From the NCBI GenBank assembly GCA_044892505.1, contig CM097882.1, forward strand, positions 574,182,001 through 574,246,000: 64,000 bases of DNA, read 5' to 3'. The translations under genes and the position numbers were made by a program. The notes under the pieces are model-generated. The model was given only the letters and a program-made list of their open reading frames with translations, made no database searches and was not told the origin of the DNA. Numbering within the stretch: position 1 is the first letter of the stretch; every line of letters starts with the position of its first letter. The stretch is from Schmidtea nova. Lineage: Eukaryota. This document shows positions 9,996 to 64,000 of the stretch, piece after piece.

Positions 9996-11379
<1,384 letters not shown>

Positions 11380-35788: not shown

Positions 35789-35979
35789 CTCTGTAAAATG
35801 TATCATTAATCGGGTTATGTATGGTTTGTCTGTTCTCTCAGTCACTATCTTTATTATCAAACAGGTGTTTCACTCTCAGATCGCCTCATACATTCAAAGA
35901 CATAACAAAACCCAAAAATTAATACATTTATTTTTAATACACATCAAATATTCCTTCGATGGATCGGTTTCCTTGCGAT

Positions 35980-37738: not shown

Positions 37739-37746
37739 TATTTATA
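37739..37746 (-). promoter_or_regulatory. Candidate LTR TATA box (TATAAATA); copy in the 5' LTR at 63893-63900
   Basis: Identical in the sister LTR (~30339-30346). A CCAAT in reverse orientation lies ~25 nt upstream, and a candidate donor AAAG|GTAATT follows at 37637 (63791). Confidence 0.55.
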
Positions 37747-38351
37747 CTCAACCGGTGTTGTTGGTTAGCCAATCAGCATCGAGTATGTGTGTATGTTTGC
37801 TTCATTTTTCATGTTGTCGGCTTTTTGCTGCCTAACTTAACTTGCCGATTTGTTTGGTTAATCATGCGGTAAGTTTTTCTTTGTCATCAATTTATTTTAT
37901 TTTATTTTTGTTTTTAGGTCTTTGGTGACATCCGCCCACGCGCTGTCATATTCAGATTTTATCTGCTTCGCATGAGTGAGTTTTGAAGATTTTTGTTGTT
38001 TTGATTAATATTTTATTTCTTTTAGATGTTGCCGCCTATTTTGTTACGCTTTGGTGTTGGTAATTTATTTTGTTGTTATTCTGTATTTAATTTATTTTAT
38101 TGATTGTATATTATTTTCAGATGCTGCTCGATTTGGCTGGCCCAACATCACTCGGGGTCCCCTAAAATTGCGTCCCGCAATTACATGCATATACCTATAT
38201 CAACATACATAAAAAGTTCGTGACAGAACTTACATGCAAAACCACATAAGGTGGTAGCTGTTATACCCATTTTTACACAAAGTCACACATTGTCATTGTC
38301 ATGTTTATATTGTTACACAGTTCAATGTTTCTGGCTCATAGGGGTTGATTT

Positions 38352-41612: not shown

Positions 41613-41702
41613 TCTACAACAATATTTACATCAATTTCCCCATATTTTTGATTTTTTCTGGTTCTTTATTTACACGTATTTACACAATTTTCCGCTTATT
41701 CA

Positions 41703-48100: not shown

Positions 48101-51100
48101 GGTGCTGTAATCAGCTTATCTCGCAATGTTTCAAATGCTGCTTGCTGTTCTATTCCCCATATAAACGACACATCTTGTCTTACCAATTCTTGCATTGGCT
48201 TTGATATTCCTGCATAGTCCTTGATAAACTTTCGATAATATCCACACAATCCCAAAAATTCTTGTATTTGAGTCACTGTCTTTGGTGGTGGACATTCTTT
48301 GACTTTCTCGATATTCCTTGGATCTGGTTCTTTTCCTTTTGCTGATACAATGTGACCTAAAAATGTCACTTTCTCTTTTGCCCAATCGCACTTTGACGGC
48401 TTCAATTTCAGTTTCCACTGTCTTAATTTCACGAACACATTTCTGATGTCTTGTAAGTGATCTTCGAATGTTGCGGAGTAGATCAATAGATCGTCGATAT
48501 ACACCATGCATTGCTTTATGCCATGTGTTACGAAATTCATGCATCTCTGGAATGATGCTGGCGCGTTTGTTAACCCAAACGGCATTTTCTTGAATTGGTA
48601 CAGATCTCGTCCGATTGTAAATGCTGTCTTCTCTTTATCCTCATCTTTCATTTTGATCTGCCAATATCCGCTTTTTAAATCCAGTGACGTGAAATAAGCT
48701 GCTCCTTGTAACGTCAATAACATTTCATTTATGTCTGGCAGTGGGTACGTATCTCTTTTCGTAACTGCATTCAATCGTCTGTAATCGATACAGAATCTCT
48801 GAGTTCCATCCTTCTTTTTCACCATCACCACTGGGAATTGCCAGGGTGAGCAACTAGGTTCGATGACCTCTGCATCTAACATCTTTTGTACCTCTTCTTC
48901 TGCCACTGCTTTTTGAGCTTCTGCCAATTTGTATGGTCGTAATGCTATTGGCGTTTCGTCCGTCAACGGTATCGTGTGTAATGTTACATCACATGTTCCC
49001 AGATCTAAATCTGATGCTGCGAATATATCTTTATATTCCATCAACAGTTTCTGTAACTGTTCTTTTTGTCGTTCGTCTAACAACACACTGTCGATTTTCC
49101 ATGGTAATTCGTCTTTGCTTTTCTCGTTCTTGTCTGGTATTTCGATTTCGGACATGGGTGTCAATTTACCCAATCTCTCATTCTCGTATATTATCTTGTC
49201 CTCTTCGTCGAAGTTTACCAGATTAATTGGTATCTCACCTTCTTGGTTTATCGTAACCAATTCTCTTGCCATTGGTAATTCTTTCTTTGCTTCGAACTTC
49301 TTACTGGGTTCGAATATCATATCTCCTTTGATTGTCGAATCGATCTTGACATAACACATCATTTCGTGTCTCGCTGGCACTACTATTTGTTCCGCACTTG
49401 CCACTTTAACTTTCATTCTGCAGATTTTTCCGGTTCTGTCTTTTAGCTTCATTGCTCCTAGATCAATTACGATTTCCTTGAACAGGTCTGGCATCAGGTC
49501 AGTTCCAATAATACATGGTACACTCAGCGATGGTATTACAGCGATGTACGTGTTGATTTCTGCACCTCGATGCTTAATTTTTACAAACCATCTTCCGGCT
49601 ACTTCTACTGTCTCTTGACTGCACGCGATTACATGTACATTCGTTTTCTCGATTTCTCCTTGGTTTTTCTCTGGTATATAGTTGATGTCGATTGCCGAAA
49701 TATTCGCGCCTGTATCGATCATAGCTTCAATTTCTCTTCCGTTTATTTCTACGGTTGTTGTTAAAATCGGTCCCATATTTGTGGACATAACTGCTATCGT
49801 GTGCGTGTCTTCTAACGAGTCTACGCTTTTACCTCGTTTTACTTTGCATCCTTCGGGAATTATCGGGTATATACTTGTCATCGGCATCATCTGCATCATA
49901 TTCGGCTTTGCTTTGTATATCGGTTCGTTATACATTGACTGAGGTGGAGCGCTGTATCTCCAATTCTCAACTGCACTCTTTTCAGTGTATTGTGGAATCT
50001 GGTTTATATTCGCTTGTCCTCCTCGATCGTCATCATCATCATCATCATTGCTTGAGTCATCCTGCGTTCGATATCCTCTCATTCTTTCCCATAATCCTTT
50101 CCTTTCTTTCTTTAGTTGTCGCCTTGCTTGTTCATCTTGCATTATCTTTTTGAATTTCCTTCCGACATCTTCATTTGTTCCTCTCATTTTTGCAAGTATC
50201 TTCAACAACCTCTTTATTCGATGTATGTCTTTTGAGTGTCCATGTAACACCATCGTTTTCGCAAGGAATGGTAAAAACCCTACTACCATTTTCCAATTCA
50301 CTTTCTTCTCTCTCTTGTAGATATCGAAACACGCTAACATCTGCGTTATTATCACTCTGACGATTTGTATTATCAATATAACTCCCAGTATTCCAGCCAT
50401 CATTTGTCCAAATATCAGGAATCTTCCCCACATTGCCTTCATCATATTTTCTGTGGCTTTCTTGAAATGTGCCGGTGACAACAACAGTTCGTAATTCGGT
50501 CCTTCTCGATAATTCGTTCCTCCCGTTATCGTTACGATATTTGACAGTAATGCTTCTCTTCTTGCCGGAAATAGTATATTCTGCCTTGCTGCCTCCAGAT
50601 CTTTTGGACTATAGATTCCGTTGTTTGAGACATCTACGTCACTGAACTGTCTATCCTTTGACAACTGCATTAGCTCAAATTCTCTTGGTGCTAATACTTC
50701 GGTTCTTCCTGGGAACATAACCCATTTGCCATCTGGCTTCTGATAAAGCGGTCCGTACGCATTACTACAGTTGAATGGATTTGGTTCAAATCCTGGTGGA
50801 TTGATGATTCTCGTCACCGGTTGAACGTATCGTACTTTTCCTTTATAATCGATTTCTAGTTCGTTTGTACATTGTCCAGGTTTCAACTGCGTTGTTGCTG
50901 CTAGCGATGCATGTGTCTTTTCGCAAATGTATACATACATTGCCTCTCCAACCACTCTTCCGAAATGTCCTTCTCTCAGTGGTAATAATGGCATCGCGCT
51001 ATCTGGATTCGTAATCGCTACGGCCAACTTTGTCTTTAATATTTCCCGATTCAGTATACAATCGTTATTTATCAGATCATAGTACACTTTTTGCAATGAG

Positions 51101-54100
51101 GCTTGTCCTCTATGGAATAAGAAATCCATTTTATTATTCACATACAAGTGTAGCTTGATATCCATTGTGTCGATCTTGGGTTTCGCATTCGGCACTTCTT
51201 GTTTCGACACGTATATTCCTGGATAGTTTGTTTCGTATACTGTTGTACTGCACTTAAGGGTTGCTTTCCCTTTTATGAATCTCATTCCCACATCCTGATT
51301 TGTGGTTATCAACACTGTTGGTGTGGTTCTCATCTCTATCCGTTTTTCTCTATGATCCGGTTTCAATTGTCTTTTATTCTCTAAAGCCTCTTTGAGATGT
51401 TTTGCTCTAGCTTTGTCATCATCGTCTTCTTCTTGGAATGTTTTCCCTTGAATTTCGTCAAACTTTGCTCCTTGTAGCAGTTGTAATTGACATTCGTTCA
51501 CTTTCGGTTTGTATATCAATGTTGACATTCCCGTTTGACACATGCTCCTGTCAATTTTACACATGGATAACGTTTTCATTTCTCCTGTTGTCGGTTCGAA
51601 GAATGCTTCGTAGCTTTTCAGTTCGACTATGTATGTGTCCATTACCACTAAGTTGGTTGCAGGTACTCCAAATATTGGGTAGGTTTCTCCTTGACAATAT
51701 CCTTCTCCTCCCGTAATCCGTCCTGCTACATAATATGTCTGCTGTAACATCATTCCTGGCTTTCCTCTTATCTTGATTTTATCTCTTGTTGTTACTTCTC
51801 CATGTTTGAATAATGCTTCACAGTCTTCTCCTTGCAACACGATTGGTTCTCTTTCCGTTCCTGGCATGACAATTGCTGAATAATGTCCTCTCCCGCAATA
51901 GAATGCGAATCTCGTCTTTTGCACTTTGCATTCATTCACCATTGTCTTTATTAGTTCTGCCTCTTGATACACGTGGTACCATTGTTCCTTTTTAATCTCT
52001 CTCAACTCTACTGGAGTTGCATCTTTGCATTGCTCCGTACCTCTCAATGAGTACTTTTCTCCTAACTTCATTTGATCACAATCAAATACCTCAAATGTTG
52101 TTACACCTTCCGTGCTTAACAACCATACTAACATCATCATGATTATCGAGTTTAAATTCAACGTCGATCTTCCGTTTCCTTGCATCGTTTGTCTATTCTC
52201 CATTTCCCTCAATACTCCTTCGAGTTTCTTTCTCATCACGTTAGCACCTTCTTTTGTCTGGTTTTCTTTTACAAATTTTTCCCATCCTCCTTTTCTGAGG
52301 ATATATGGTTCAATTTCCTTCTCCATAATCATCGCCGTATTTTTGATATGTCTTCCCATCGGACTTGACTTCGGACTCCCTCGGCTTAGCGTTAGTAGAT
52401 TGTATATCGTATACGAGATTGCTACCAGATATTTGCTATCCGTCTCTGCTCCGTTAAGTAGCCTTTTTATTAACATCGTGGTTCCTTGCCAATCTAGATG
52501 ATTCGCTTTTGTTTTTGCCTTTATCAATTCTGGCATAATCGGTGCTATCGCATTGTGTAGCATCCTTGCCTTTGTACTGGGTTCGTTTATCCGCCACAAA
52601 TTCTTTAATTCTGGATCAATTATCGCTAACACATCCATTATCGTTTTGGTGAGCCATTCCTCTCCTTGGCAGACTTGATTCTCCTCTTTTCCTCTGGTCT
52701 CTGCGATTTTATCCAGTTTCTTCAAGCAAATCTCCCATTGCTCTTGTCTCCTTTCTTCTCTTGACTTTGGAATTGCTGTTGCTGGATCTATCTTTGGTCT
52801 TCCTCTTGGTCGTTTTTCCATTCCAGTTCCGGTTTCTACAAATCTCGTTGCTCTTCCTGTTTCTTCCGTAACATCCCTTCCTTCGTTTGCTCGTTGTTCT
52901 AACCATCTTTCCATTTCTTGAGTAAACTGTGGTTGTTCTTGCTCGTCTTCCGAATCGTTTACCATTTCTATGACTACCTCCTGTTCCACTCCTTGATCGT
53001 CGATTTCTGCTGGTGACGTTATTGGCATCTCTATTATTCTGTCGAAAATATTCGCCGTTGGTTTTTGAGTCAACTTCGTTAGTTCTTCTATCGCTTCGTC
53101 ACTGTCTGTTAGTATCTCATCGACGTCATACGCTTCTGGCGGTGTTCTCTCTCTCGTTTTGATTGGTGTTGTCCTTGTTTGTCCCGAACTTGTTCCTGGG
53201 GTCATTGTTGACTTCATCGGACTTGGTGTACTCATGCTTCCTTTCGCTTTCTTTTCCTCTTTAAACTTCAGTGGTTGACCCACTATTTGTGCCACTGTTA
53301 GCGTATTCATTAGATCCAATTGCACTGGTGTCAGCCAGATTTCCAAACTATTATCCAACGATCGTCCTTGATGTTGCAGGTGGAATGGTAGTTCGTACAT
53401 CAGTTTCTCTTTAACACTTTTCACTTTTTCTGTTAGCATCACCCAAAACTCTTCTTTTCTCTGATTCGGATACATTATCCTCAAATGTATTTTTTGTGGC
53501 GTTTCCTCCGCAAACTCTTTGTTTCTCCACTTTTTTATTACATCGTCTAGTTGCTCTGGACACCACTCGTTAACTCTCTTGTATTCTGCTATCGCTTTAG
53601 CTACTTTTCTCAAGTTCGTTATGTCTTCTCCATTTGAGATTATAAATTGTGCTAAGCCTTTTATTGCTTGTCTTTTTCCCCGAGTATTTCCTCTCAACAG
53701 CTCGATCAATTCACTCGTTTTCTGTTTCTCCAGTTCTGCCCATATTACTGCAGTTTCTGGTCCGTCTAAGTCCGTTGGTAATAACCTCCTTGTTACCATA
53801 CATATCCGTTTCGTATTCCGTTCATGTCTGTCTTCTCCTTCCGGATCTTCTTCATACACGCCTCTTTTCACTTTCCAACATTTCTCTTTGTTATCCCATT
53901 GCTTCTCTACTGGCGTCAATCGTCGTCTGTTAAGATCCAATTCTCCCAATATTGTCTCCCATTCTGGCTTCATCTGCCAGTTCCGATAGATTTCTACTAT
54001 CTGTCTCAACTTGCGCATAACGTCCTCTTGTCGTGCCTTTTTCCTTTCCTCATCTTTTGGTGTTGCTCTTGGCACATCATCCATTCTGATGACATGTATT

Positions 54101-57060
54101 GTCTGATAATTATCCCATATGCCGATTTTATACGCTCGTCTTTCATCGCGTTCATTCAGTAGATGTTCTTTGTATTTTATAGCGATGTCATCCTCAAATT
54201 CGTCTTCCCGTTCTCGTTGTAATATCGTCTCATTGATGACATCTACTATTTCTCCCACTTTACTATCTGGTATTACCTCAATTTGTTTTGTCTCTTCGTT
54301 TGGTAATCTCACGGTAATCTTCAGATCTGATACCTCTCCTCGTTTAAACATTTCTTTTCCCATCTTTGCGATTAGCTTATCCGTTTTGAAATTTGAATGT
54401 CTCGTTTGACTTGTATCTCGTATGTTCTCGATACACTGTTTCAAATTCTCATACTCGCTTTTCGTCAATTCCTTTCGATGTTTCTTGATTTGTTGGATGA
54501 TCTGTTCTATCATCGTATTCAAATTCTCCGCCAAGATTCTTTCCTTTGCCTCCATCAACTGAGGTTTTATTCTCATCTCATAACACGTATTCGCTTCTTT
54601 GACGATTCCTTGTAAGTTCTCTTCCTTCTTGGTGTTGCATATTGATAACGTTGTTATTTCTCCTGGCCATATGCCTGTGTCTATCATATGCGTTCCTTTT
54701 CTCACCAATCCGTTTTCCGAATATATGAACTTGTCTTTGTACGAGCTTCCCAATCTGTCCTCAACCCATCGGTAAATTCCGTCTGTCATTGGGTTCCTTA
54801 TCCAGATTCTCGGTGAACACTCGTTTATCCATATCTGTATTATGTATTCGTTGAGTGGTTCTTTTAGAAGCTTCTCAATCAATTCTTGTATTACTCTCAC
54901 TTCTCTTTCTTGTAACCACTCTTTATACTTCATCTGCCATACTGCTCGTATGAACTTTCGGTATCGTTTCTTGTCAATAAACTCCTCGTTATGAATTACT
55001 TCCAACGCGTTATCCATCAGCTTCTGAATTTCGTCTTCCTTTACTGACATCGTTTCTATCGTCTCGACTACTTCCATCTTTTTATCCTCGTTTTCCGGTT
55101 CCTTTAGCATGTCTCCTGCCAGACTGCTAACTTCGCTGTCGTCTTCTTCATCTGACAACTCTTGTCTTGGGTGTCTCAGCATCCCAATATGCGCGGTTGG
55201 TCTCGCTTTGTTTTTGCTAACTTCTTGTATTAGTTCATTCTCGTTTCCTGTTACTTCAGCTTTTCCCATTCTTTTCTCCAATTCGTCTATTTCTTCCAAC
55301 CGTCTTCGTCTTATTTTTCCCTTGAATATTCGACTGATCCGAGTTTGGTGTTTCACTGGTGGTGGGATTTTTTCCGGTTCCACCTCTCTGATGATCATCA
55401 CGTTTATTTTCGTTTCTGTTACTCCCATATCTTCCCATATATCAGTCATCTTTAACTTCACTTCCGGTAAATCTTCTGTTTGTAGGAAGGCTTCTCTGGG
55501 CAGTTTCGTCACTCCCGGGATCATCTCATTTACTTTATTGAACAATCTTCCCACTTCTTCTTTTACATCGTACTTGAATCGCCACACGTGATCATTCGGC
55601 ATGATCACCAACATTCCTCTTTGTTTGATTCTCACCTCCTCTTCTTGATTCGTTTCTTTTTCTGTTTCTTTTTCTTTTTCTACTTCTTCATCCTTTTGAT
55701 TCTGCTCTGCGGCTTCTACTTCCTGATTCACTTCTTCTTGTTTCTGCTCTTCGTTTCTTTTCTCTTTAATTTCTAACTCGTCTGATTCATCCTGCTGCTT
55801 CTCTTCCATCATTGCTCGCATCATGTTGATCCTTGGATTTCCCTTTTTTAACTGTTGTAATCGTTGTTGTCTGACTTGTTCTTCTTCTCGTCGTACTCTA
55901 GCCCATTCTTGATTATGTTTCTGTTGGCTTTCTCTATTCTCCCTTTCGGCTTCAGCTTCTATTAACTGGATCATGTTTATCTTTGGTTGAGCAGCTTGCT
56001 GGCTTCCTTTTGCCATGCTTTCTATTATCTCGTGTAATCTGGATACCTCTTGTCTCAACTTTGCTTCTTTCATACTGGCTTCGTTTGCACTGCTGTTTGG
56101 GTTGTTCCGTTGTTGACCTTGATTCCCATAGCTTGGTCGATTCCCGTAATTCTGTCTATTTCCATTGTTTGACCAACTTCTCTGCTGATTACACTCTCTT
56201 GACATGTGTCCCGTTTTCCCACATGTATAACACGTTTTCACATAACATCGATTTTCTGAGTGACCTTTTTGTCCACACAGTTTACAGGCTACATTCTGAA
56301 AACAATCTTGTTGCCAATGTCCGTTTTTCCCACACGTCTGACATTGCCTATTCTGCCTGTCATTGTAACTATTTCCTCCATTCGTATTCACCGTAATATA
56401 TCCGTTATTCTTCCTCGCTGGCGGTTCTTTGAACAATCTCTGCGAATGGGGAATACTTTGATTCATGTTTCTTTTTCCTTGTTCTTCATCTTCTGTCGTT
56501 TTTCCCATTACCGCCGTAATTCTCATGTCATTCATTGCCATATGCAATTCGAATAGGTTGGCTGCTTCCAACGCTTCATCTACTGTTTTACATCCTTTGC
56601 ATCCCACTTGTGCTCTGATGTCAGGTCTCCTGAGACCTCGTACAAATAACGCTGTCATCAATTCCTCATCTACTGGGCTTCCTCTATTGAATGCCAGTTT
56701 CGCCAACTTCCTTAATTCACTTGCGTACACCGCATTTGACTCATTTCTCCTCTGTTTTCTTGCTGAGAACTCATCGAACGCTTCATTCAGCACTTTGTTT
56801 ATCCCAAACGTCTGTTGGAAGAATTCCTTGATCGCTTCCCACGTTCTGGGTGGATTACTTCCCGATCTCTTCTCAATATACAGATCCAACGCGCTATCTT
56901 TCAAGTATAGCGGGATTCGATTCGCTAACGTTTCTGCACTCCATCCGCATATATCCACGAATATGTCAAATTCCTTCAGAAACGTATCCAATCTACTGGC
57001 GTCTCCATTGAATGGTTCGCCCTTGAATTTTTCTCTCAGATCCTCTCTGTGTTCACTCAT
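42175..57060 (-). CDS. 4961-aa polyprotein: Gag, Ubl x2, Bcl-2-like, Env (class III), PR, RT, RH, IN, ANK, FN3-like x4, TM
   Basis: CCHC knuckles at 56191-56343; AMIDTGA at ~49710; YIDD at ~48495; LATDASG (RH); HDGKLGGH..CLTC, MDVVG, LTDQG, ERFN, GPY (IN). No stop or frameshift in 14.9 kb. Confidence 0.96.
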   Translation of the reverse strand: MSEHREDLREKFKGEPFNGDASRLDTFLKEFDIFVDICGWSAETLANRIPLYLKDSALDLYIEKRSGSNPPRTWEAIKEFFQQTFGINKVLNEAFDEFSARKQRRNESNAVYASELRKLAKLAFNRGSPVDEELMTALFVRGLRRPDIRAQVGCKGCKTVDEALEAANLFELHMAMNDMRITAVMGKTTEDEEQGKRNMNQSIPHSQRLFKEPPARKNNGYITVNTNGGNSYNDRQNRQCQTCGKNGHWQQDCFQNVACKLCGQKGHSENRCYVKTCYTCGKTGHMSRECNQQRSWSNNGNRQNYGNRPSYGNQGQQRNNPNSSANEASMKEAKLRQEVSRLHEIIESMAKGSQQAAQPKINMIQLIEAEAERENRESQQKHNQEWARVRREEEQVRQQRLQQLKKGNPRINMMRAMMEEKQQDESDELEIKEKRNEEQKQEEVNQEVEAAEQNQKDEEVEKEKETEKETNQEEEVRIKQRGMLVIMPNDHVWRFKYDVKEEVGRLFNKVNEMIPGVTKLPREAFLQTEDLPEVKLKMTDIWEDMGVTETKINVMIIREVEPEKIPPPVKHQTRISRIFKGKIRRRRLEEIDELEKRMGKAEVTGNENELIQEVSKNKARPTAHIGMLRHPRQELSDEEDDSEVSSLAGDMLKEPENEDKKMEVVETIETMSVKEDEIQKLMDNALEVIHNEEFIDKKRYRKFIRAVWQMKYKEWLQEREVRVIQELIEKLLKEPLNEYIIQIWINECSPRIWIRNPMTDGIYRWVEDRLGSSYKDKFIYSENGLVRKGTHMIDTGIWPGEITTLSICNTKKEENLQGIVKEANTCYEMRIKPQLMEAKERILAENLNTMIEQIIQQIKKHRKELTKSEYENLKQCIENIRDTSQTRHSNFKTDKLIAKMGKEMFKRGEVSDLKITVRLPNEETKQIEVIPDSKVGEIVDVINETILQREREDEFEDDIAIKYKEHLLNERDERRAYKIGIWDNYQTIHVIRMDDVPRATPKDEERKKARQEDVMRKLRQIVEIYRNWQMKPEWETILGELDLNRRRLTPVEKQWDNKEKCWKVKRGVYEEDPEGEDRHERNTKRICMVTRRLLPTDLDGPETAVIWAELEKQKTSELIELLRGNTRGKRQAIKGLAQFIISNGEDITNLRKVAKAIAEYKRVNEWCPEQLDDVIKKWRNKEFAEETPQKIHLRIMYPNQRKEEFWVMLTEKVKSVKEKLMYELPFHLQHQGRSLDNSLEIWLTPVQLDLMNTLTVAQIVGQPLKFKEEKKAKGSMSTPSPMKSTMTPGTSSGQTRTTPIKTRERTPPEAYDVDEILTDSDEAIEELTKLTQKPTANIFDRIIEMPITSPAEIDDQGVEQEVVIEMVNDSEDEQEQPQFTQEMERWLEQRANEGRDVTEETGRATRFVETGTGMEKRPRGRPKIDPATAIPKSREERRQEQWEICLKKLDKIAETRGKEENQVCQGEEWLTKTIMDVLAIIDPELKNLWRINEPSTKARMLHNAIAPIMPELIKAKTKANHLDWQGTTMLIKRLLNGAETDSKYLVAISYTIYNLLTLSRGSPKSSPMGRHIKNTAMIMEKEIEPYILRKGGWEKFVKENQTKEGANVMRKKLEGVLREMENRQTMQGNGRSTLNLNSIIMMMLVWLLSTEGVTTFEVFDCDQMKLGEKYSLRGTEQCKDATPVELREIKKEQWYHVYQEAELIKTMVNECKVQKTRFAFYCGRGHYSAIVMPGTEREPIVLQGEDCEALFKHGEVTTRDKIKIRGKPGMMLQQTYYVAGRITGGEGYCQGETYPIFGVPATNLVVMDTYIVELKSYEAFFEPTTGEMKTLSMCKIDRSMCQTGMSTLIYKPKVNECQLQLLQGAKFDEIQGKTFQEEDDDDKARAKHLKEALENKRQLKPDHREKRIEMRTTPTVLITTNQDVGMRFIKGKATLKCSTTVYETNYPGIYVSKQEVPNAKPKIDTMDIKLHLYVNNKMDFLFHRGQASLQKVYYDLINNDCILNREILKTKLAVAITNPDSAMPLLPLREGHFGRVVGEAMYVYICEKTHASLAATTQLKPGQCTNELEIDYKGKVRYVQPVTRIINPPGFEPNPFNCSNAYGPLYQKPDGKWVMFPGRTEVLAPREFELMQLSKDRQFSDVDVSNNGIYSPKDLEAARQNILFPARREALLSNIVTITGGTNYREGPNYELLLSPAHFKKATENMMKAMWGRFLIFGQMMAGILGVILIIQIVRVIITQMLACFDIYKREKKVNWKMVVGFLPFLAKTMVLHGHSKDIHRIKRLLKILAKMRGTNEDVGRKFKKIMQDEQARRQLKKERKGLWERMRGYRTQDDSSNDDDDDDDRGGQANINQIPQYTEKSAVENWRYSAPPQSMYNEPIYKAKPNMMQMMPMTSIYPIIPEGCKVKRGKSVDSLEDTHTIAVMSTNMGPILTTTVEINGREIEAMIDTGANISAIDINYIPEKNQGEIEKTNVHVIACSQETVEVAGRWFVKIKHRGAEINTYIAVIPSLSVPCIIGTDLMPDLFKEIVIDLGAMKLKDRTGKICRMKVKVASAEQIVVPARHEMMCYVKIDSTIKGDMIFEPSKKFEAKKELPMARELVTINQEGEIPINLVNFDEEDKIIYENERLGKLTPMSEIEIPDKNEKSKDELPWKIDSVLLDERQKEQLQKLLMEYKDIFAASDLDLGTCDVTLHTIPLTDETPIALRPYKLAEAQKAVAEEEVQKMLDAEVIEPSCSPWQFPVVMVKKKDGTQRFCIDYRRLNAVTKRDTYPLPDINEMLLTLQGAAYFTSLDLKSGYWQIKMKDEDKEKTAFTIGRDLYQFKKMPFGLTNAPASFQRCMNFVTHGIKQCMVYIDDLLIYSATFEDHLQDIRNVFVKLRQWKLKLKPSKCDWAKEKVTFLGHIVSAKGKEPDPRNIEKVKECPPPKTVTQIQEFLGLCGYYRKFIKDYAGISKPMQELVRQDVSFIWGIEQQAAFETLRDKLITAPILVHPDFKKPFLLATDASGYAAGAVLGQFDEGGKERVIGYYSRTFRKHERNYSVTEREAYAIILAIKHFKYLLWGHEIYITTDHQPLVWLGQHKESSSRLMRWAMQLQEYSPFIKFKAGKANANADCMSRFTFPELVNLNALKICALIAEDLDFSELRKDQLEDEELGLISKYLKEREMEIFGKNQVLREHMQKYQHRYVMEKGWLLIQDGERRLMCLPANRRKEIMTQYHDGKLGGHMSAKKTIGRLRQKYFWPTMEDDVKEWIKNCLTCATRKNVGTKWKTPLKPMPIPAEPMATIAMDVVGPLPESLKGNQYILVVTDYLTKFPEAFAIPDQKAKTVARILVEEICCRYGTPKKILTDQGTNFMSEILDEVTNYFRIAKLRTSPYHPQTNDQTERFNGTLIRMLSNYVSKHQTDWDEYINLCLMAYRMSIHAATKLSPFQLMYGRDCNLPIDLEYQPPLSQYMEVDDYVTKFKERMQEIWKTAELNIKFYQESYKDLHDQKKNVKAHELKVGDWVIIETPEIIPGTVKKLQRPGKGPYEITTVNENNVRVRLVNNPLVRPIYVNACRCRKIPKTATLSPEKRVMTRSQTARINMLRVQQKPQTSLEDNRREIIDIKELAKKTREIIPEWRWWHDFHILSEVRKNVMEYAKDRTAHPITRTLLEEIPQTLNLQDKDGNTALHNAIKHGGNEKVKEIMEMILEGGGEIDKVNWEGITPLMMMTIHGRNNEIIKLFGNTRSNWMTKDKEGRTFLNHAIDRANHRILKYITENATWEIDELTRGSIMKQAIGVKNSKTWRILLKWKRPEGDSWVIDCNEVFTKGENTLLKHLLEVTYDPKTLAVLIARDTLRVSENPREYKLEDRKKELFGLIKKWCDKQWNPDMSFEHFYDIQKQHKEISKRYKELVEALKYGQFFRQAVYQDQRMKQMQTRIRSKAVLFNAKADHQERLDAIVAKAQEKLSEFKENKNSLEILGAITEKMHRYAQGDYNEIDIETIKNQIPVAFLLSKDGRLPIHWALRRKKENEVLEITKTMVKCEADMNTVDDNGDTIMIIAARKKTKLKVLNELYEAGAKIEGKNGKNNSIIDIAIQWNNFEMIKFMKSIKKQDDIEYLANNVKNFSLTVMIHDIEKTRALLTWVNPITKEPVFKINDHMEQNQNWCIRSALLRHKKPEIVEEFLKRRDLKFTNNPREQERMGRWKDLFRKYVNEWANAKEAIKQSRLKDIEPSKDMEIREFESSTLAVQTYERLIEGINVEDDIFKGPGGGYRDFDDKSNNEKNNEDNDNKRTEDNEKERQEEPKPTRNDKKGEAEERENSGTKDERTNYGKRTGSLLLRPEMLCIAILITIIGQGEAKKQYVTLEIIRGNEVYERICWKENLKKNDTLKCILSDLKRDVIQIKGLEKEKSYIICAIKQRGEPKAPQVTACQLYKATEALKIQKWIEKRSEETTRRTEVESEKGKNQSEAEEGIRNRTEKERITKNPAGKLTFQPELICVALILILIKRIMEDIDISVMTLVNIQDQRTTNGRCWGRNNEVIGISETRESRKAETNEEIEITEIETDKKYELCLMEKAANGNRPGTSECKVFQAKEIIEFPKRKKQDQETIANEVVTVEIKNIGRRTIGMCWRKYIGVSTNNIIPQCRTRERGIPFQLNGFEVGQTYEICVIRRIREIIQRSSECKLYKTPEQINGTRTIEMGGSRQRKRKSKRTTTTNSQGVQQATTERTTIENEPESTTLIIWKIHKKVLEICWTLMPNSMGKSPRNCQKTSNDKKEIIEVEMRKLKTNAEYEVCAIEEVDTQGNPQERCETYYTPIKRRIKKLEFRELSQKREQNEKEETIPNQQEKWEPEKVIEKVRRRQQQYEQWEAEWKGQYGVMINQSETPRMSIGKTVMGLISMGVFIACIPLITIMIVCWRYGMRNKTIAVKWPDVKVMNYNIKLPKEVREELKRRSKHEEMWVQIEDEELYEGKPVIVV
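50245..52160 (-). other. env: Envelope domain: chuvirus/Monjiviricetes-type class III fusion glycoprotein
   Basis: Internal signal LNSIIMMMLVWLLSTEG; FEVFDC..YSL...C; CGRGHYSAIV; LAVAITNPD; GEAMYVYIC; CTNELEIDY...YVQPVTRII; GIYS..DL..ARQNILFP; TM at ~50345-50425 followed by an amphipathic segment. Confidence 0.8.
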
Positions 57061-57938
57061 CCCGATTCCACTGTCTTGGAATACTGTACTAATTTTCTTT
57101 GCTTCTAGTTCACCACTTGTTTCTGAATTTGACTTTTCTTCTTCACTACTCTCTGTTTCGTTATCTCTTGATTCGTTTCTTGTTCTGTTTTCCCTGACTA
57201 GTTCACTGTCTATCGTCTCTACTTCGTTTTGTACTGCTAGATCTTCTGGGGTTTCTTCTTGGTTCTCTTTATTACTCGAATTATCGCTGATCTCTACTTG
57301 TTTGTTCTTTTGTTGCTTCGGCTTGTTACCTGTTCTTGTCCTTTTTGCTGCTTTTCTTTCTGCTTCCGTTAAGATTGGTATTATACCTGATCTTGTTTCT
57401 CGTCCCTCAATTTTGTCTATTCCTCAACTGCTTATATTCTCAACTGCTTTTCTACTCCGCTTTTGCTTTGCTTCTTCTTTGATTTGTTTCTTTTGATTGC
57501 TCTGACTGCTAGATTGCTTTGAATTGCTTGATTGATTTGTTTCCTTAAAACAAATAATCACTTACACGATACGTCCCCGTTATCGTGTTTCTCGTCCCTC
57601 TCACGGGTGTAGTCATAATTCATGAAGATCCCCATTTTTCCCATTTCCCTTGATTTTAAGTCTATTTAAATTATCTATGCAGTCGTATCAATTATCTATT
57701 CTTTATCAAATGCACCAATTACTTTTCCCCAGTTTCCCAATTACTTTGTCGCTCAGCGCTCTTATTATTCCCTTTACTTTTTCTCAGGCTTCTCTGGCTC
57801 TGAGTTCAAATCTCCCCTTATCTGTCAACTACTCTATTTCTCAACTATTCGCTTTATCTCTTGTTCGCACTACGTTTACTACTTCATTTCAATTCTCCTC
57901 TCTACTCACCTTTAATTTCAACTGACATCTCTCGTTGG

Positions 57939-58404
57939 CCTGTTGGGCTTTCCAATCAGCGCCTTTCATCTCACCTTTTATCTCGAACTCTGTTTCTCTC
58001 AACTTCACTCATTATCTCATTAGCCTGCTGGGTTTTCCAGTCAGCGCTTTTAATCTCACCTTTTACTTCTGCTTCATTATTCTCGACCTCAATTGTCGTT
58101 TCATTAGCCTGCTGGGTTTTTCCAGTCAGCGCTCTTATTATCCACCCTTTATCTCTTCACTGTCGACTTTTACCTGTTCTTTGCTCCGATGATCATCACT
58201 TTTGACCTGCTGGGTCTTCCAGTCAGCGTCCTCAATTTCACCACTTTATTGTTACTCCCTTTTATTCTCTCGATCTTTCCTGATCGTTTCCATTGACCTG
58301 CTGGGTTTTTCCAGCTAGCGTCTTTACCCCTTTACCTGTCTTAACAAACCGGTTTCATTTTACTCCCGTCGAATCTCATGGTCTGCTGGGTTTTCCAGTC
58401 AGCA
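57939..58404 (-). repeat. Six dispersed ~24-bp hairpin motifs (consensus RNA GCUGACUGGAAAACCCAGCAG) with unique ~60-75-bp spacers
   Basis: Copies start at 57939, 58024, 58108, 58206, 58297 and 58382 on the plus strand. Confidence 0.85.
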
Positions 58405-58730
58405 CCCTTCACTTACTCACTTTACTTTATTACTCCTTTGTATGCATACTTTATCATCATTAGGCCACATAATCAGCTTTACTCGCATTTATCAATACCC
58501 AGGTGCGCACCTTCAACTCTCACATTATTATCTCGGTTTCTTTCAACCCTTATTCCTCATTATTCGCTATTCATTTTCACTATTCATCATTTATCCTCAT
58601 TATCATTTATTCATCTCCATTATCGCTTATTGATCTTCACTATCCGGATAGTTTTATGCTTTATTTAGTCCTCATCTGCCTCACTTCGTCGTCTTTCTCG
58701 TGGGCTTTTACTCGATATTTTATTTCAAAC

Positions 58731-58958
58731 GAGAACTATGCTCACTGCTGAGAACTATGCTCACTAACGAGAACTATGCTCAATGACGAGAACTATGCTC
58801 ACTGACGAGAACTATGCTCACTGACGAGAACTATGCTCACTGACGAGAACTATGCTCACTGACGAGAACTATGCTCACTGACGAGAACTATGCTCACTGA
58901 CGAGAACTATGCTCACTGACGAGAACTATGCTCACTGACGAGAACTATGCTCACTGGC
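58731..58958. repeat. Tandem array of 12 x 19-bp GAGAACTATGCTCACTGAC; degenerate interspersed copies continue to ~59290
   Basis: Exact 19-nt period from 58731, then about nine further variant copies separated by short spacers. Confidence 0.95.
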
Positions 58959-59982
58959 AAAACATGGTTGTTATGATGGTTTTGCTTACTGATGGAAACT
59001 CTTTGCTCCGGGGCTTATGTTCCCCGATGAGAACTATGCTCACTGATGGTGACTACAGGAATTATGTTTCCTGATGAGAACTAAGCTCACTACGATGACT
59101 ATGTTTATTAATGAGAACTACGCTCCCTGATGAGGACTATGTTCGCTTGTCTTGTGTTTATTAATGAGAACTCTGCTCACTACGAGAACTATGCTCACTA
59201 TGGTGTTGTGTTTTATGACGAGACCTACGCTCACTAGGATGTTACGTTTTATGACGAGACCTATGCTCACTATGAGACCTATGCTCACGAACGAAAACTC
59301 GAAATATCATCTCTCAGTGGTTGCATGTGTTGCTTCGGGATGTTCCTCCCAGTGGTCACTTATGCTTCTTCGGAGAATCTATTGTCGCGTTTCGTTAAGT
59401 TCTATCTTTCAAGAACTATGGGCAAATCCTTTCTCTCTAGGACCCCTTTTATCATTTCCTTTCTTTCAAGGATTTCCTTTAACCTCGAGTTTTCCATTGA
59501 CTCGGTTCATCTGTTATACCCCTTTATTCTATTATCGATTCGTCAACCTTTCTACTTGATTTTACCTTATGCGAGCTGATTACGTGCCTTTCATCATATA
59601 CCACATTTATCCACTTTTAATATTCATTTCCTCACTCTCCTTCTCTACTGATCAGTTTATCTTCCTATTTTTATAGTTTTTCTGCGCGCGCCTAACCTCA
59701 TTGAGTTGTCCCTACCTTTCACCCCAACCAAAATATATAAAAAGATCGCATTGGTCCACTGATGCACGATGTGGTGATCAGTCACATCACAAGAGCTTTC
59801 CAATATCCGCGATTGGATCCCTTTCTACACATCTCGGGTGAGTTGATCAGTTGGTTCCCCCCAATGGGTGCTTAACGGACTACTCGTAGGTAGCTCATAA
59901 TTACTTAGGTCATTTTTACCAAATCATTTTTAAACCCTCATAATTTCAATAACAACTGCACTTGTTCCAAACTTTATTTCTA

Positions 59983-60441
59983 TTACAAGTACACTGTTAT
60001 TTTCTCGGATACGGGAAGGTTGCACATAGGACATCGTTCGTTTATTTTACATTCATTACAGAATCGAAAATGCCCACACGGCAACAACATTATCTGTATT
60101 TTGTTTATTTCACAGATGTAACACGTCAAATACTGTCTCGTATATTCGGTTGTCGTTCTTATCCACTCATCGTGTTTTGTTGCAATCTGTTGTTCTAGCC
60201 TGTGGCACTCGATATTCATTTCAGGGTTGTTTAATCGCTCTCTATACCACTGATATCGTGTTGCTGTATCCACTGTTATCTTATTCTCGCTTATGCTCAT
60301 CATTATTTCAGCTCTTTCTGTGTTGTTTGTCGGTTCGTGATATCCTCCTACCTCGAGTTGTTTTAACTTTCTCATTACTGTCTCCACCGCCTCGTTGTTT
60401 GTCTCGAAAAACGTTTGCATTTCTTTTATTTTGTTCTCCAT
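59983..60441 (-). CDS. 152-aa protein with a C-terminal IAP/MDM2-type C3HC4 RING
   Basis: CYICEINKIQIMLLPCGHFRFCNEC...CPMCNLPVSEKITVYL at the extreme C-terminus; CAG 3 nt before the ATG; AATAAA 5 nt after the stop. Confidence 0.85.
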   Translation of the reverse strand: MENKIKEMQTFFETNNEAVETVMRKLKQLEVGGYHEPTNNTERAEIMMSISENKITVDTATRYQWYRERLNNPEMNIECHRLEQQIATKHDEWIRTTTEYTRQYLTCYICEINKIQIMLLPCGHFRFCNECKINERCPMCNLPVSEKITVYL

Positions 60442-60970
60442 CCCCTGAATGGATTCTCATTAATTTTGTTATCGATTTTTATTTATCATTTATTATTCCT
60501 ATTCTATGGTAGCCCTACTGTTCGGTTTTTGTTGTTCTATTTCGCGCCACTGCGTATCCCCCCGTGTTCTTGAATGTCGCCCCGACATGATCATTGTTAG
60601 TTGCTCACACTCATACCATTTTCATGCACACTTTTCAGCATACTTTTACCTTACGTCATGCATACTTTTCATCACTTTTCATACTGTTATTCCACATACT
60701 ATTCCTCATACTTCATTCATCCCCATACTTACATTCCATTATCATTCATACTTTCATTCTCATGCATACTTTCATCACGTTCATCAATCTCATTATTTTG
60801 CACTCATACTTTTATTTATTATTTTTCAACCCGATTCGTTCTTGCTTCAGGACCCTCAAACCCTCTATTATTTACTTTACTTTTCCTCGCTAAATTCAAT
60901 TCATCCCGGTTCAGGCGCTCTAAACTGTCCGCAGATATCGAATTCACTTTTTCCCACAAAGATCGATTTA

Positions 60971-60988
60971 ATCCCGGCTGAGCCCCCA
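60971..60988 (-). promoter_or_regulatory. Primer binding site, tRNA-Pro type (TGGGGGCTCAGCCGGGAT)
   Basis: 6 nt from the 5' LTR end; 16/18 match to the known MLV tRNA-Pro PBS TGGGGGCTCGTCCGGGAT. Confidence 0.88.
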
Positions 60989-61378
60989 AATTTATGCTGG
61001 TGTGTTGGTTAGATTGACAACTGAGATCATTAGGATTTTATCTGTTAGGGTGATCTCGCCAACATAAAAACATTTCCCCCGCTGACACCCATGATGTATC
61101 CCTAACTACTCATCATGTTGGTGCTGTGTCAACGTTGTGAAATGACAAGGCAGGTGAGCAACCTTTCGGCTACTATTCCCTTGTTTATTCACGGGTCCAC
61201 CACTACCGATAGAAGGTGTTTGTGGCTTTCTTTCGGTCCCACTTATGCTCTTTACTTTGCTCTAGGGTAAGTTAATTTCAGCGCATCTGCAGTTTAAATG
61301 AATCCGGGTTTTATCTACCTTCAATTTTCAGACATTCCACAAACAAACAAGACAAGTCAAATCATTCATTTTATACAT

Positions 61379-61942
61379 TTATTTATAGTTTAATAATACC
61401 GAGGGTCGGATTACATTTAGTAGTTCTTGCTCGGATAGACCACTGAGCAAGTCTACCTCTATCCCTACGCGATCCGCATATGCGCGTCTCTCCCTACGCT
61501 TTTTCGCTCCCAAGCGATTCCGTCTCTTTGTTCGTTTCGAGCCTTCCAGAATTATTGGGGACGTTGGGGTAGTTGTGATTGGGATGGTTTCTATTTCCGT
61601 TTGGGTACTTGTTGTCATCGATATGGTGTCCACCCACCGATTAAAGGTGCTAGCCCTGATCACTGGGCGTAATTGCTCGGTGATAAACTCCTGGGTTGAT
61701 GCCCTCAAGTAATTCGACAGCTCCATCTTTAGTGCTGCTACCTCCCTAGCTTGCTCGTCGATTGTTCGTTCCGCCCTGTATCTGGCTTGCAGGATGGTTT
61801 TAACCCTCTCTGGGTTGAACCACGTGGCTTTAATTCGCTGGTGCTCGTCGTTTAGCTGCCGCAAGCGGTTTTCTAGGACTCGCGATCGTGCTTTATGCTC
61901 TTTTGCCTCTTGTTTGTAGTTCCTAGTTGGATGTTCACTCAT
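61379..61942 (-). CDS. LTR ORF-B copy in the 5' LTR
   Basis: Translation identical to 35225-35788. Confidence 0.7.
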   Translation of the reverse strand: MSEHPTRNYKQEAKEHKARSRVLENRLRQLNDEHQRIKATWFNPERVKTILQARYRAERTIDEQAREVAALKMELSNYLRASTQEFITEQLRPVIRASTFNRWVDTISMTTSTQTEIETIPITTTPTSPIILEGSKRTKRRNRLGAKKRRERRAYADRVGIEVDLLSGLSEQELLNVIRPSVLLNYK

Positions 61943-62133
61943 CTCTGTAAAATGTATCATTAATCGGGTTATGTATGGTTTGTCTGTTCTCTCAGTCACT
62001 ATCTTTATTATCAAACAGGTGTTTCACTCTCAGATCGCCTCATACATTCAAAGACATAACAAAACCCAAAAATTAATACATTTATTTTTAATACACATCA
62101 AATATTCCTTCGATGGATCGGTTTCCTTGCGAT

Positions 62134-62769
62134 TTAAATGAAGGGTCGTAATTCCTGATCGGCCGTGTTCTCGTTACGACGGATTCCGCTTTCATAGTAT
62201 AACTCCGGGGCGGGGCTCCAACTTAACTTGTCCCGAAAGATGAATACCTCCCAGAGGCGTAGATCCTTGGGCTCGGGATGTTGATCTAGTGATACGCTTC
62301 CTGGCGCGTTTGAGTAGGCGAAGACTTCCCCAGTGTCGCCACACCGAGGCCTGTCTAGCAGTATGTATCCGAGTTGATGTAGCTCTTTTCCGGACGTCAT
62401 TCCGGTACTTAGTAACCAGCGGGGTTGCTTTAACTCATCGAGGAATTGATAAAACCATCGGGTATTTTCCGGCTTGATACGACCCGAGGAGGGTACCCAA
62501 TCGGTATCTCCTTCCCACCGCAACTGTAGTCCAAACGCGCAAGCTGGGGTGCTAGCTGCTGAGCTCATATGGGCCCTCATCCATCGTCGTAGGTGGCGAC
62601 GTGACACTTCGACAACTTTTCGGGGTGCTTCGTTCTCTCCTCTGATATTTGGGTTCGTATTTGGTCTGAGGACGGAGCGGGTGCGCCGTTTCTTACGGAG
62701 GATGGTATTCTCTATCTTTATAGGGTACGCGACCATCGGCTTCTCTTGATAACTCTCCAGTTTCACCAT
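62134..62769 (-). CDS. LTR ORF-A copy in the 5' LTR
   Basis: Translation identical to 35980-36615. Confidence 0.8.
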   Translation of the reverse strand: MVKLESYQEKPMVAYPIKIENTILRKKRRTRSVLRPNTNPNIRGENEAPRKVVEVSRRHLRRWMRAHMSSAASTPACAFGLQLRWEGDTDWVPSSGRIKPENTRWFYQFLDELKQPRWLLSTGMTSGKELHQLGYILLDRPRCGDTGEVFAYSNAPGSVSLDQHPEPKDLRLWEVFIFRDKLSWSPAPELYYESGIRRNENTADQELRPFI

Positions 62770-64000
62770 GGTATTTCTAAAGAAGATGGTTGTTTTTAAT
62801 CTACGGATTCTACGGCAGAACGGACCTATTTATATTAGTCAACCCACCCGTCTTAATTATGAAATTTTGTAGGTCCGAGGGGTACCTTCTGTGGTTTTGC
62901 CGGATCATTGTTGGTGGCTGGACGTGGGTCGTGTTAGATGATAGCTTGAACTAATGTACTCCGCTTTTTATTTCGACGATTCAGCTACGCACGATTTGTT
63001 ACAGTTGTTAATCATATCGCTATTATACTTAATATTCATCAATCAGGTTCAATCACTCAACTACAACCGGTTTTATTTATTGGTAATACTATTTATCACA
63101 TTCAATCTCATCAGTCGTTTTCGATTACTTCCTCATTTAACTAGTAATGATCATGCCATGTCGGGTAATCCCCGTAAGTTCCTGGGGTCCTTACTCCCTG
63201 GGGTTCATCATTTTATCGGTTCTCAATGCCTGTAGTTTATTTATCATCTCTCCTGGCGACTAAACACAGCTGACAGAGGTTATCGATTATCCTTAACCCT
63301 TGATACTAGGTTCACTATGCTCGAACTCGTACGCGCTAATGTTGACATATACCTACCCTCGTCGTCACCTAATTCATCTGCACTAATATTATTCACTGCA
63401 CGTATATCCCTCGTCTAGACTTCGCCACGATATATATCCTTCCCATAAAACGGGCTTCACTTTGCGCTCGTTTACGACTACTAGTTTATACTCGATACCC
63501 TATCATTGTGATGCCAAACGTTTATATTAGATCATCTCTACCTTGATTTCGTTCACGATCATTAGGTCTTACTCGATACCCTATGTGCATTCAACCCCTT
63601 CCGCTTTCCAAATATTTAATACACCTATGGTCCCGCCGCATCAGCACCTCACAACCGAAAGGTTGTGTTGCGCTGAGAGGCCCCAAGAATCCGTCAGGCT
63701 GTTAGGCCTCCGGAAAACCTTATGGATTTTAATATGATTAACAATTATAATTATGAGGGTTTAAAGCAACAATCGAACACACAACAATTACCTTTTATTT
63801 TTTCTCCAAGTTGGTTTTACAATGTTCTCAGTGCTCAACTGCAAGTCACACTTGGTAAAAAATGGCATTGTCAAATACTGATTTGACTTCAGTATTTATA
63901 CTCAACCGGTGTTGTTGGTTAGCCAATCAGCATCGAGTATGTGTGTATGTTTGCTTCATTTTTCATGTTGTCGGCTTTTTGCTGCCTAACTTAACTTGCC

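What the first reader, a model, noticed from the sequence alone, without database searches (positions are those of the whole stretch)
57939..58404. Array of six regularly spaced bulged RNA hairpins with a compensatory base change in the 5' leader
Seen: motif CTG-CTGG-GTTTT-CCAG-T-CAG (RNA sense CUG-A-CUGG-AAAAC-CCAG-CAG) at 83-98-bp spacing with unrelated spacers. The 57939 copy reads TTGG...CCAA, changing both partners of one pair, and loop length varies between copies. Inference: repeated protein-binding stem-loops (packaging signal, RRE-like export element or IRES component), like a natural MS2-type array; candidate ligands are Gag NC or ORF-B.
Basis: partly seen in the sequence, partly recalled or inferred. 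Interest (0 to 1): 0.7.

Follow-up and report, generated by a model that had tools for sequence, protein, structure and literature searches.

The report
Covarying hairpin array in giant retroelement
Six copies of a small two-bulge hairpin, whose paired letters change together, sit in the untranslated leader of a giant envelope-bearing retrotransposon and likely act as repeated docking sites for an RNA-binding protein of the element itself, which would be a retrovirus-style control system not found described for this kind of element.

Summary
Six hairpins (57937-58406, minus strand) lie in the leader of a 29.5-kb Burro-like Ty3/gypsy element with an env domain. Each has 10 pairs: a 3-bp stem, bulged G, 3-bp stem, bulged A, 4-bp stem and a 5-6-nt loop. 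Four of 10 pairs change on both sides within the window, and 7 of 10 across copies in the genome. Stems are better conserved than spacers. All 40 landmark-picked copies carry the hairpin: 5-7 in most of this family, one in a sister family with 60% Gag identity. That family instead amplifies other covarying hairpins. The array lies upstream of an AUG-free zone before gag. Best reading (0.4): docking sites on the full-length RNA for an LTR-encoded protein whose arginine-rich motif is conserved, working like Rev/RRE. Rivals are a Gag packaging signal, internal initiation, and CP2-type DNA sites (the core fits CNRG-N5/6-CNRG). The strand was not resolved by G-U pairs, no RNA data were found, and binding is untested. 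ORF-B is a RING finger and a poor candidate ligand.

The parts
57937..58406 (-). Array of six two-bulge hairpins (module H) separated by purine-rich, mostly unpaired spacers of 57-70 nt
58380..58406 (-). H1, outer stem GGU/ACC, loop AAAAC
58295..58322 (-). H2, outer stem GAC/GUC, bulged A shifted by one place, 6-nt loop
58204..58230 (-). H3, outer stem GAC/GUC, loop AAGAC
58106..58133 (-). H4, outer stem AGC/GCU, 6-nt loop
58022..58048 (-). H5, outer stem AGC/GCU, loop AAAAC
57937..57963 (-). H6, outer stem GGC/GCC, upper stem UUGG/CCAA (double change), loop AAAGC
58468..58510 (-). Conserved single-copy landmark (palindrome plus a fixed 10-mer); the first hairpin starts 51-76 nt after the 10-mer in most copies examined; 431 matches in the genome
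58729..59299 (-). 19-nt tandem/dispersed unit array (13-25 units in most copies of this family); weak predicted hairpin
59457..59472 (-). Module X hairpin (2 regex matches per copy in this family, 3-16 in the sister family)
57530..57559 (-). Conserved hairpin with a T-rich 5' arm and AG in the loop (splice-acceptor-like); marks the start of the AUG-free zone
57061..57546 (-). AUG-free zone (486 nt) ending at the first Met of the polyprotein frame (57060)
42175..57423 (-). 5082-codon open frame: Gag with three CCHC knuckles, in-frame fusion glycoprotein (env), protease, RT, RNase H, integrase, ankyrin repeats
59983..60456 (-). Leader ORF ('ORF-B'), C3HC4 RING finger
60970..60988 (-). Primer-binding-site-like stretch next to the 5' LTR (tRNA-Pro assignment recalled, not tested)
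60995..64000 (-). 5' LTR (3307 nt; 301 nt lie beyond the window), identical to the 3' LTR
34841..38147 (-). 3' LTR; 4-bp target-site duplication GTTA
61379..62023 (-). LTR-encoded ORF (ltrB): predicted long helices, a disordered linker, an arginine-rich motif (61478-61537) and a short leucine-rich helix; candidate ligand
62134..62829 (-). Second LTR-encoded ORF (ltrA) with a basic patch; no family and no homologue found
40200..41630 (-). Accessory TRAF-like ORF (RING, zinc fingers, MATH)

Best explanation
The six repeats are conserved hairpins with paired letters that change together, and they likely work on the element's full-length RNA as repeated docking sites for an element-encoded RNA-binding protein, most likely the LTR-encoded arginine-rich protein, which would license that RNA for nuclear export and then packaging, as Rev does on the RRE. 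SHOWN: position between the primer site and gag; the 10-pair, two-bulge fold by computation; covariation; conservation above the spacers; presence in every landmark-bearing copy checked; a constant bulge-flanking stem with a free loop; an arginine-rich motif kept at 26-31% overall identity in a protein of the same element; an AUG-free zone that starts downstream of the array. INFERRED: that the fold acts in sense RNA; that the gag mRNA begins scanning downstream of the array (by splicing or internal entry), so that the array marks the unspliced RNA; the identity of the ligand; the export/packaging outcome; that six copies raise avidity where the sister family uses other hairpin modules.
For: Covariation: 4 of 10 pairs change on both sides among the six window copies, 59 of 60 cells pair, and 0 of 500 shuffles reach the covariation score. 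The figure is 5 of 10 with relatives, 6 of 10 over 81 distinct leaders, and a seventh pair changes in two older copies. The changes span two one-sided bulges that are kept. Constraint: 11 of 120 stem columns vary against 79 of 306 spacer columns over 27 distinct copies (Fisher p 1e-4); identity to eight older copies is 540 of 594 in hairpins against 647 of 832 in spacers. Presence: 40 of 40 landmark-picked loci carry at least one hit, on the element's sense strand. The middle stem CUG/CAG never shows a double change, while 20 loop sequences occur; this pattern suits stem-and-bulge reading by an arginine-rich motif. Rev's motif is a helix that targets the stem's major groove and binds multivalently (PMC9062085, passages). 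The ltrB motif R-x-G-x-x-x-R-R is invariant in 11 of 11 aligned copies and predicted helical after a disordered linker. The neighbouring modules X and Z also vary compensatorily. AUG-free zone: 46 of 49 usable loci have no AUG in the 478-653 nt before the gag Met, with 3 AUGs in all against 432 in equal stretches upstream; in the window, 0 against 9.
Against: There are no binding, probing or expression data. The G-U versus A-C test gives 16 against 16 events, so the working strand is not shown, and both strands fold about equally well. An arginine-rich motif can be a plain nuclear localisation signal. No nuclear export signal was tested. ltrB has no homologue or fold match. The acceptor-like site is also the arm of a hairpin and ends in AAG in this family, and a strict acceptor scan of the sense strand found none, so splicing is unproven. 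The core fits a CP2 DNA site in 360 of 392 hairpins, and 8 keep that site while breaking a pair. The sister family lacks the outer stem and has one copy only. Copies share ancestry, so the counts are not independent events.
Confidence: 0.4

Rival explanations
1. The array is the packaging signal (psi), read directly by the Gag nucleocapsid, and the repeated hairpins nucleate capsid assembly.
For: It lies between the primer site and gag. Gag has three CCHC knuckles. The spacers are unpaired and purine-rich, and several palindromes lie in the leader. A palindrome and single-stranded purines are needed for MPMV packaging (title of a reference in PMC5035971).
Against: The loops are A-rich with no fixed G, whereas nucleocapsids prefer exposed G (recalled). 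The array is 2.6 kb from the primer site. No amplified gag-less derivative that keeps the array was shown: the one deletion junction tested is unique among the 40 candidates scored.
Confidence: 0.2
2. The array is part of an internal ribosome entry or shunt device that places ribosomes on the AUG-free zone, possibly for a non-AUG start at a conserved AUU near 57411.
For: The 3.6-kb leader holds 89 AUGs and an upstream ORF. The AUG-free zone starts downstream of the array. The frame is open for 121 codons before the first Met. An AUU start in a shunt landing site is described for RTBV (PMC5902531, passages).
Against: The sister family has the same AUG-free zone with one truncated hairpin. The array ends about 390 nt before the zone begins. 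Splicing explains the zone equally well.
Confidence: 0.15
3. The repeats act as double-stranded DNA: an enhancer array for CP2/LSF-type factors, in a leader that also bears Grainyhead- and GATA-like words.
For: CP2 binds CNRG-N5/6-CNRG and Grainyhead binds AACCGGTT (PMC5829564, passages). 360 of 392 hairpins fit the first, including the 5/6 spacing (390 of 392 loops), and 8 keep it while breaking a pair, six of them by the same G-to-A change. AACCGGTT lies inside the array at 58347. BURRO1 expression is intestinally enriched (PMC8532177, passages).
Against: Three outer pairs covary across two bulges, outside any such site. Two separate double changes (TTGG/CCAA in 12 hairpins, CTGA/TCAG in 2) keep pairing and destroy both half-sites; 18 hairpins are paired without the site against 8 the other way round. 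Positions that are free in the CP2 consensus are nearly fixed (one is C in 386 of 392). A dual DNA/RNA role remains possible.
Confidence: 0.13
4. The array is a neutral old tandem duplication, and the complementary changes were made by template switching at quasi-palindromes.
For: The leader is prone to unit gain and loss, and two spacer pairs still show common descent.
Against: The hairpins are more conserved than the spacers. One copy persists in place at 60% Gag identity. Template correction would tend to erase the bulges, which are kept (inference).
Confidence: 0.04

Closest known systems
Burro / GYPSM1 giant gypsy-like elements of planarians (PMC6431247, section 7 read)
   Same: A polyprotein of about 5000 aa with Gag bearing three CCHC knuckles, env in frame between gag and pol, ankyrin repeats, a MATH/TRAF accessory ORF, long LTRs and tandem repeats.
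   Different: The review marks 'tandem repeats' in a figure legend but describes no RNA structure, hairpin array or arginine-rich LTR ORF in the text read. The TRAF ORF here lies downstream of the polyprotein. No BIR hit was found, and the total length is 29.5 kb. No direct sequence comparison with Burro was possible.
Rev/RRE, Rex/RxRE, Rem and Rej export systems of complex retroviruses (PMC3856414 and PMC9062085, passages)
   Same: A structured cis element, multivalent binding, and a small element-encoded protein with a helical arginine-rich motif.
   Different: The RRE is one folded domain of about 350 nt in env (PMC3342944, abstract start in a search listing). Here the sites are separate 27-nt hairpins in the leader. 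Binding, export signal and export are untested, and the passages list such proteins only for lenti-, delta- and betaretroviruses.
Retroviral psi packaging signals
   Same: Position between the primer site and gag, with palindromes and single-stranded purines nearby.
   Different: Six near-identical repeats, A-rich variable loops, and a position 2.6 kb from the primer site.
MS2 and PP7 operator hairpins and their engineered arrays (recalled; search found no paper)
   Same: A hairpin with a single bulged A, repeated with unstructured spacers; a 4-bp upper stem and a 5-6-nt loop resemble PP7 geometry.
   Different: The loop sequence is free here, there is a second bulge, and no coat-protein-like ligand is present.
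CP2/LSF DNA sites, CNRG-N5/6-CNRG (PMC5829564, passages)
   Same: The core words and their spacing.
   Different: They do not explain the outer covarying stem, the bulges or the double changes that destroy the site.

Membership tests
Burro-like giant Ty3/gypsy elements | env (mononegavirus-type fusion protein) in frame between gag and pol | tested here: met
   PF24664 at E 1e-68 between the zinc knuckles and the protease in one open frame
Burro-like giant Ty3/gypsy elements | About 5000-aa polyprotein with CCHC knuckles and ankyrin repeats; MATH/TRAF present | tested here: met
   5082 codons, three knuckles, ankyrin repeats, separate TRAF ORF
Burro-like giant Ty3/gypsy elements | Total length above 30 kb and a BIR domain | tested here: not met
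   29.5 kb; no BIR hit among the 8 proteins scanned. Filed as Burro-like, not as Burro1-4.
Burro-like giant Ty3/gypsy elements | Sequence identity to Burro1-4 | not testable with these tools
   No reference copy was available
Rev/RRE-type export system | Element-encoded protein with a helical arginine-rich motif | tested here: met
   Motif invariant in 11 of 11 aligned copies and predicted helical; a motif only, with no homology to Rev found
Rev/RRE-type export system | One large branched RNA domain within env | tested here: not met
   Separate hairpins in the leader; no Rfam family at a meaningful score
Rev/RRE-type export system | Element lies only on unspliced or partly spliced RNA | tested here: inconclusive
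   AUG-free zone and an acceptor-like site downstream, but no RNA run was listed
Rev/RRE-type export system | Specific binding, CRM1-dependent export signal, export activity | not testable with these tools
   Needs bench work
Retroviral psi | Located between the primer site and gag | tested here: met
Retroviral psi | Conserved exposed G in loops for nucleocapsid binding (feature recalled) | tested here: not met
   Loop census; the bulged G is A in 17 of 392 hairpins
Retroviral psi | Retained in trans-mobilised, gag-less derivatives | tested here: inconclusive
   The one junction tested is unique
MS2/PP7 operator | Single bulged A below a short upper stem | tested here: met
MS2/PP7 operator | Fixed loop identity (feature recalled) | tested here: not met
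   20 loop sequences over 81 leaders
CP2/LSF DNA site | CNRG-N5/6-CNRG | tested here: met
   5 of 6 window copies; 360 of 392 overall
CP2/LSF DNA site | Site is kept in preference to base pairing when the two conflict | tested here: not met
   18 paired without the site against 8 with the site and unpaired; copies are not independent
Any Rfam family | Score at the gathering threshold | tested here: not met
   One chance-level hit (E 1.5) outside the array in 57400-64000

The most novel reading that the evidence does not exclude
These giant Ty3/gypsy-type proviruses run a Rev/RRE-like switch outside the Retroviridae. A small LTR-encoded arginine-rich protein, which solo LTRs could also supply, binds a natural MS2-like array. 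The leader is a cassette of interchangeable hairpin modules (H, X, Y, Z, 19-mer) whose copy numbers trade off between families and tune avidity.
Probability: 0.25. Interest if true: 0.8.

Novelty: new variant of a known kind. Interest (0 to 1): 0.58.

Why it matters
How a 25-30-kb, A-rich retroelement RNA with 55 sense AATAAA words (within the window) is exported, translated and packaged is open for Burro-type elements. The array gives a small, precise handle: a 27-nt hairpin with natural compensatory variants and a named candidate ligand, so the question can be tested with short RNAs, peptides and reporters. If the partner is the arginine-rich protein, complex-retrovirus-style RNA regulation exists in a gypsy-type lineage, and the pair could be a new orthogonal RNA-tagging module. 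If it is only psi or an enhancer, it is a neat but more ordinary finding.

Tried and rejected
Rfam: nothing in the array. Strand test: one search's G-U/A-C numbers came from a register bug in my script and are discarded; the corrected one search shows no strand signal. Expression: no RNA holder listed. The three runs laid (3 of 4 listed; kind not on record; contigs) show no listed joint with clean splice ends, with 20 joints unlisted, and their depth was not used. U1/splice-donor idea: donor-like words lie ahead of several hairpins, but they vary among copies at the GT positions in several cases, so this is rejected as a conserved partner. NF-kB-type reading of GGGTTTTCC on the plus strand: not kept in the sister family; the planarian review passages said nothing on NF-kB absence. 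Hammerhead: the hairpin lacks the core (by eye, core recalled), and Rfam gave no hit. Non-autonomous-derivative test: inconclusive. Purine variants of the upper stem: 11 matches against 6 in the control, so none is evident. More distant env-bearing families: 0 of 11 upstream loci carry the hairpin. ltrB and ltrA searches were blank. The CP2 family search of the genome gave no match and is uninformative. In one search two of 51 rows (window, L089) were dropped because the Met pattern hit a wrong place; the window was redone. Earlier-finding look-ups gave nothing that bears on this. Literature: none of the ten searches (the first six were aimed at this question) listed a description of this array. 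The original Burro paper (Grohme 2018), its supplements and Repbase were not seen and may mention the repeats.

Full report
CONTEXT. The finding lies in a recently inserted LTR element on the minus strand. Its LTRs are 3307 nt and identical, with a 4-bp target duplication and a total length of 29.5 kb. From the 5' LTR it carries a primer-site-like stretch, a RING-finger ORF, a 19-nt repeat array, the six hairpins, a 5082-codon frame (Gag with three CCHC knuckles, in-frame fusion glycoprotein, protease, RT, RNase H, integrase, ankyrins) and a TRAF-like ORF. This layout matches the description of planarian Burro elements (PMC6431247, section 7 read). I file it as Burro-like, because size and BIR were not met and no reference sequence was at hand. 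H1 lies 2586 nt from the LTR end, and H6 lies 877 nt before the first Met of the polyprotein.

OBSERVATION. All six motifs are present, with spacings of 85, 84, 98, 91 and 85. Each folds into a 3-bp stem, bulged G, 3-bp stem, bulged A, 4-bp stem and a 5-6-nt loop, with a continuous 3' arm. Pair probabilities in the whole region are 0.79-1.0, and z-scores are -2.1 to -3.9. A letter-free descriptor finds only these six in the window, and none in 300 shuffles of the region. Spacers are purine-rich and mostly dissimilar, but 2 of 21 pairs are clearly related, which points to an old duplication.

COVARIATION AND CONSTRAINT. Among the six copies, 4 of 10 pairs change on both sides. 59 of 60 cells pair, and the one exception is the shifted bulge of H2. 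0 of 500 shuffles reach the covariation score, 7 of 500 reach the pair count, and slid controls show no double change. With relatives the figure is 5 of 10 (17 hand-picked sequences). Over 81 distinct leaders it is 6 of 10. A seventh pair, the loop-closing one, changes in two older copies (that alignment was fitted to the model). These controls ignore relatedness and are not probabilities. In the 30 best DNA matches (27 distinct), 11 of 120 stem columns vary against 79 of 306 spacer columns (p 1e-4). Against eight older copies, hairpins are 91% identical and spacers 78%. The G-U versus A-C count is 16 to 16, so the strand is not shown by sequence. Sense RNA is inferred from the element's biology.

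DISTRIBUTION. A degenerate core pattern has 714 matches in the genome and 0 in the reversed control. A neighbouring landmark has 431 matches. I fetched 40 of the first 100 listed landmark sites, chosen by hand (about half for diversity; at least six were also on earlier hairpin lists). All 40 carry at least one hit to the covariance model, the weakest single-copy one at E 0.058, on the element's sense strand. The window's family carries 5-7 copies, mostly six; truncated copies carry fewer. Older lineages carry 2-6. A sister family with about 60% Gag identity has one copy at the same place, with a CCGG/CCGG upper stem and no outer stem. Eleven upstream loci of distant env-bearing families have none. 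The sister family instead amplifies other hairpins: X (3-16 copies), Y (1-12) and Z (0-7). The window's family has two X matches, no Y or Z, and 13-25 19-mers in most copies. X and Z vary compensatorily (module tables). The leader is therefore a chain of hairpin modules whose numbers change independently; H is the stable one in this family.

CLUES TO MECHANISM. (1) The stem around the bulged A is nearly fixed and the loop is free, which suggests sequence-specific reading of the stem at a bulge (inference). (2) The leader has 89 AUGs, but a zone of about 480-650 nt before the gag Met is AUG-free in 46 of 49 usable loci (window). It begins at a conserved hairpin with an acceptor-like arm at 57547, downstream of the array. 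Scanning for gag therefore probably starts after the array, by splicing, internal entry or an internal promoter. (3) The LTR encodes a 214-codon ORF with an arginine-rich motif that is invariant in 11 of 11 aligned copies at down to 26% identity. It is predicted as a helix after a disordered linker, behind long helices (mean pLDDT 77, pTM 0.33). It has no homologue or fold match. Rev's motif is helical, binds the stem's major groove and acts multivalently (PMC9062085, passages). Rev-like proteins are listed for lenti-, delta- and betaretroviruses (PMC3856414, passages). (4) ORF-B is a RING finger.

VERDICT ON MECHANISM. I commit at 0.4 to repeated docking sites for the arginine-rich LTR protein on the full-length RNA, serving export and then packaging. 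Every step after the structure is inferred. Direct Gag recognition (0.2) fits the position, but not the G-poor variable loops (preference recalled); the test for gag-less derivatives was inconclusive. Internal initiation or shunting (0.15) fits the AUG pattern and the open frame ahead of the first Met, but the sister family manages with one short hairpin. A DNA enhancer (0.13) deserves weight: the core equals the CP2 site CNRG-N5/6-CNRG (PMC5829564, passages), 360 of 392 hairpins fit it, and 8 keep it while breaking a pair. Against it, 18 keep pairing without the site, two separate double changes destroy both half-sites, and the outer covariation lies outside it. A neutral origin (0.04) conflicts with the conservation. 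The remaining weight goes to host RNA-binding proteins.

COMPARISON AND NOVELTY. It would work like an RRE or psi, and it looks like a natural MS2/PP7 array, but it is a member of none. There is no Rfam match, it is not a single branched domain, and it has no fixed loop. Ten literature searches listed no description of it. The review marks tandem repeats in Burro only in a figure legend, and the original Burro paper and its supplements were not seen. Papers seen: PMC6431247 (section 7 and passages); PMC8532177, PMC3856414, PMC5035971, PMC5902531, PMC9062085, PMC5829564 and PMC7958881 (passages only); PMC3342944 (search listing). No RNA run was listed, so expression, splicing and strand remain open. 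Rating: new variant of a known kind, interest 0.58.

Noticed in passing
window 61379-62023 and 62134-62829 (minus); copies at 35225-35869 and 35980-36675: Two ORFs inside the LTR, each followed by AATAAA, with no family or homologue found. ltrB has a conserved arginine-rich motif. TATA-like words at LTR nt 402 and 2915-2927 allow two different U3/R/U5 partitions.
   Followed up: partly
window 37869-37917 and 37976-38025 (plus strand): Short GT-AG intron-like stretches antisense to the element near the LTR start (a third seen by eye near 38059-38121); they suggest a spliced antisense transcript from the LTR.
   Followed up: no
L032:5428-7106, L034:5544-7225, L056: Sister-family leaders hold arrays of three other hairpin modules (X, Y, Z) with highly variable copy number; Z has a 3x3 purine-rich internal loop and covarying outer pairs.
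   Followed up: partly
window 57406-57417 (minus): A conserved AAA-ATT-GA context opens the polyprotein frame about 120-190 codons before the first Met in both families; a possible AUU start.
   Followed up: partly
window 57663-57697, 58347-58354, 58503-58510, 58643-58650, 59683-59690: Single-copy palindromes and GATA- or Grainyhead-like words are conserved in order across families; they could be dimerisation loops or DNA factor sites.
   Followed up: partly
G000:C1:12094418-12094440 (L063) and five more listed: A recurrent motif with a hammerhead-like core (CTGATGAG...CGAA; core recalled) from another repeat family.
   Followed up: no
L044:5708-5772, L049:5777-5829: A distant env-bearing family has 3-4 copies of a 17-nt unit about 550 nt before its primer site, with a GGRAARCCC word like the loop region of the hairpin.
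   Followed up: no
window 29943-32174 (plus); L031:5462-6483: Diverged LTR remnants of related families (73-86% identical) on both sides of the element.
   Followed up: no
window 61047-61203: Summed contig depth in the three laid runs is far higher here than elsewhere in the LTR; the run kind is unknown and depth was not interpreted.
   Followed up: no
window 10105-11379 (plus): An intronless-looking stretch of a beta-tubulin gene (name recalled from the translation); other transposon fragments lie at 13888-17230, 19521-20846, 21976-23514 and 27022-28530.
   Followed up: no
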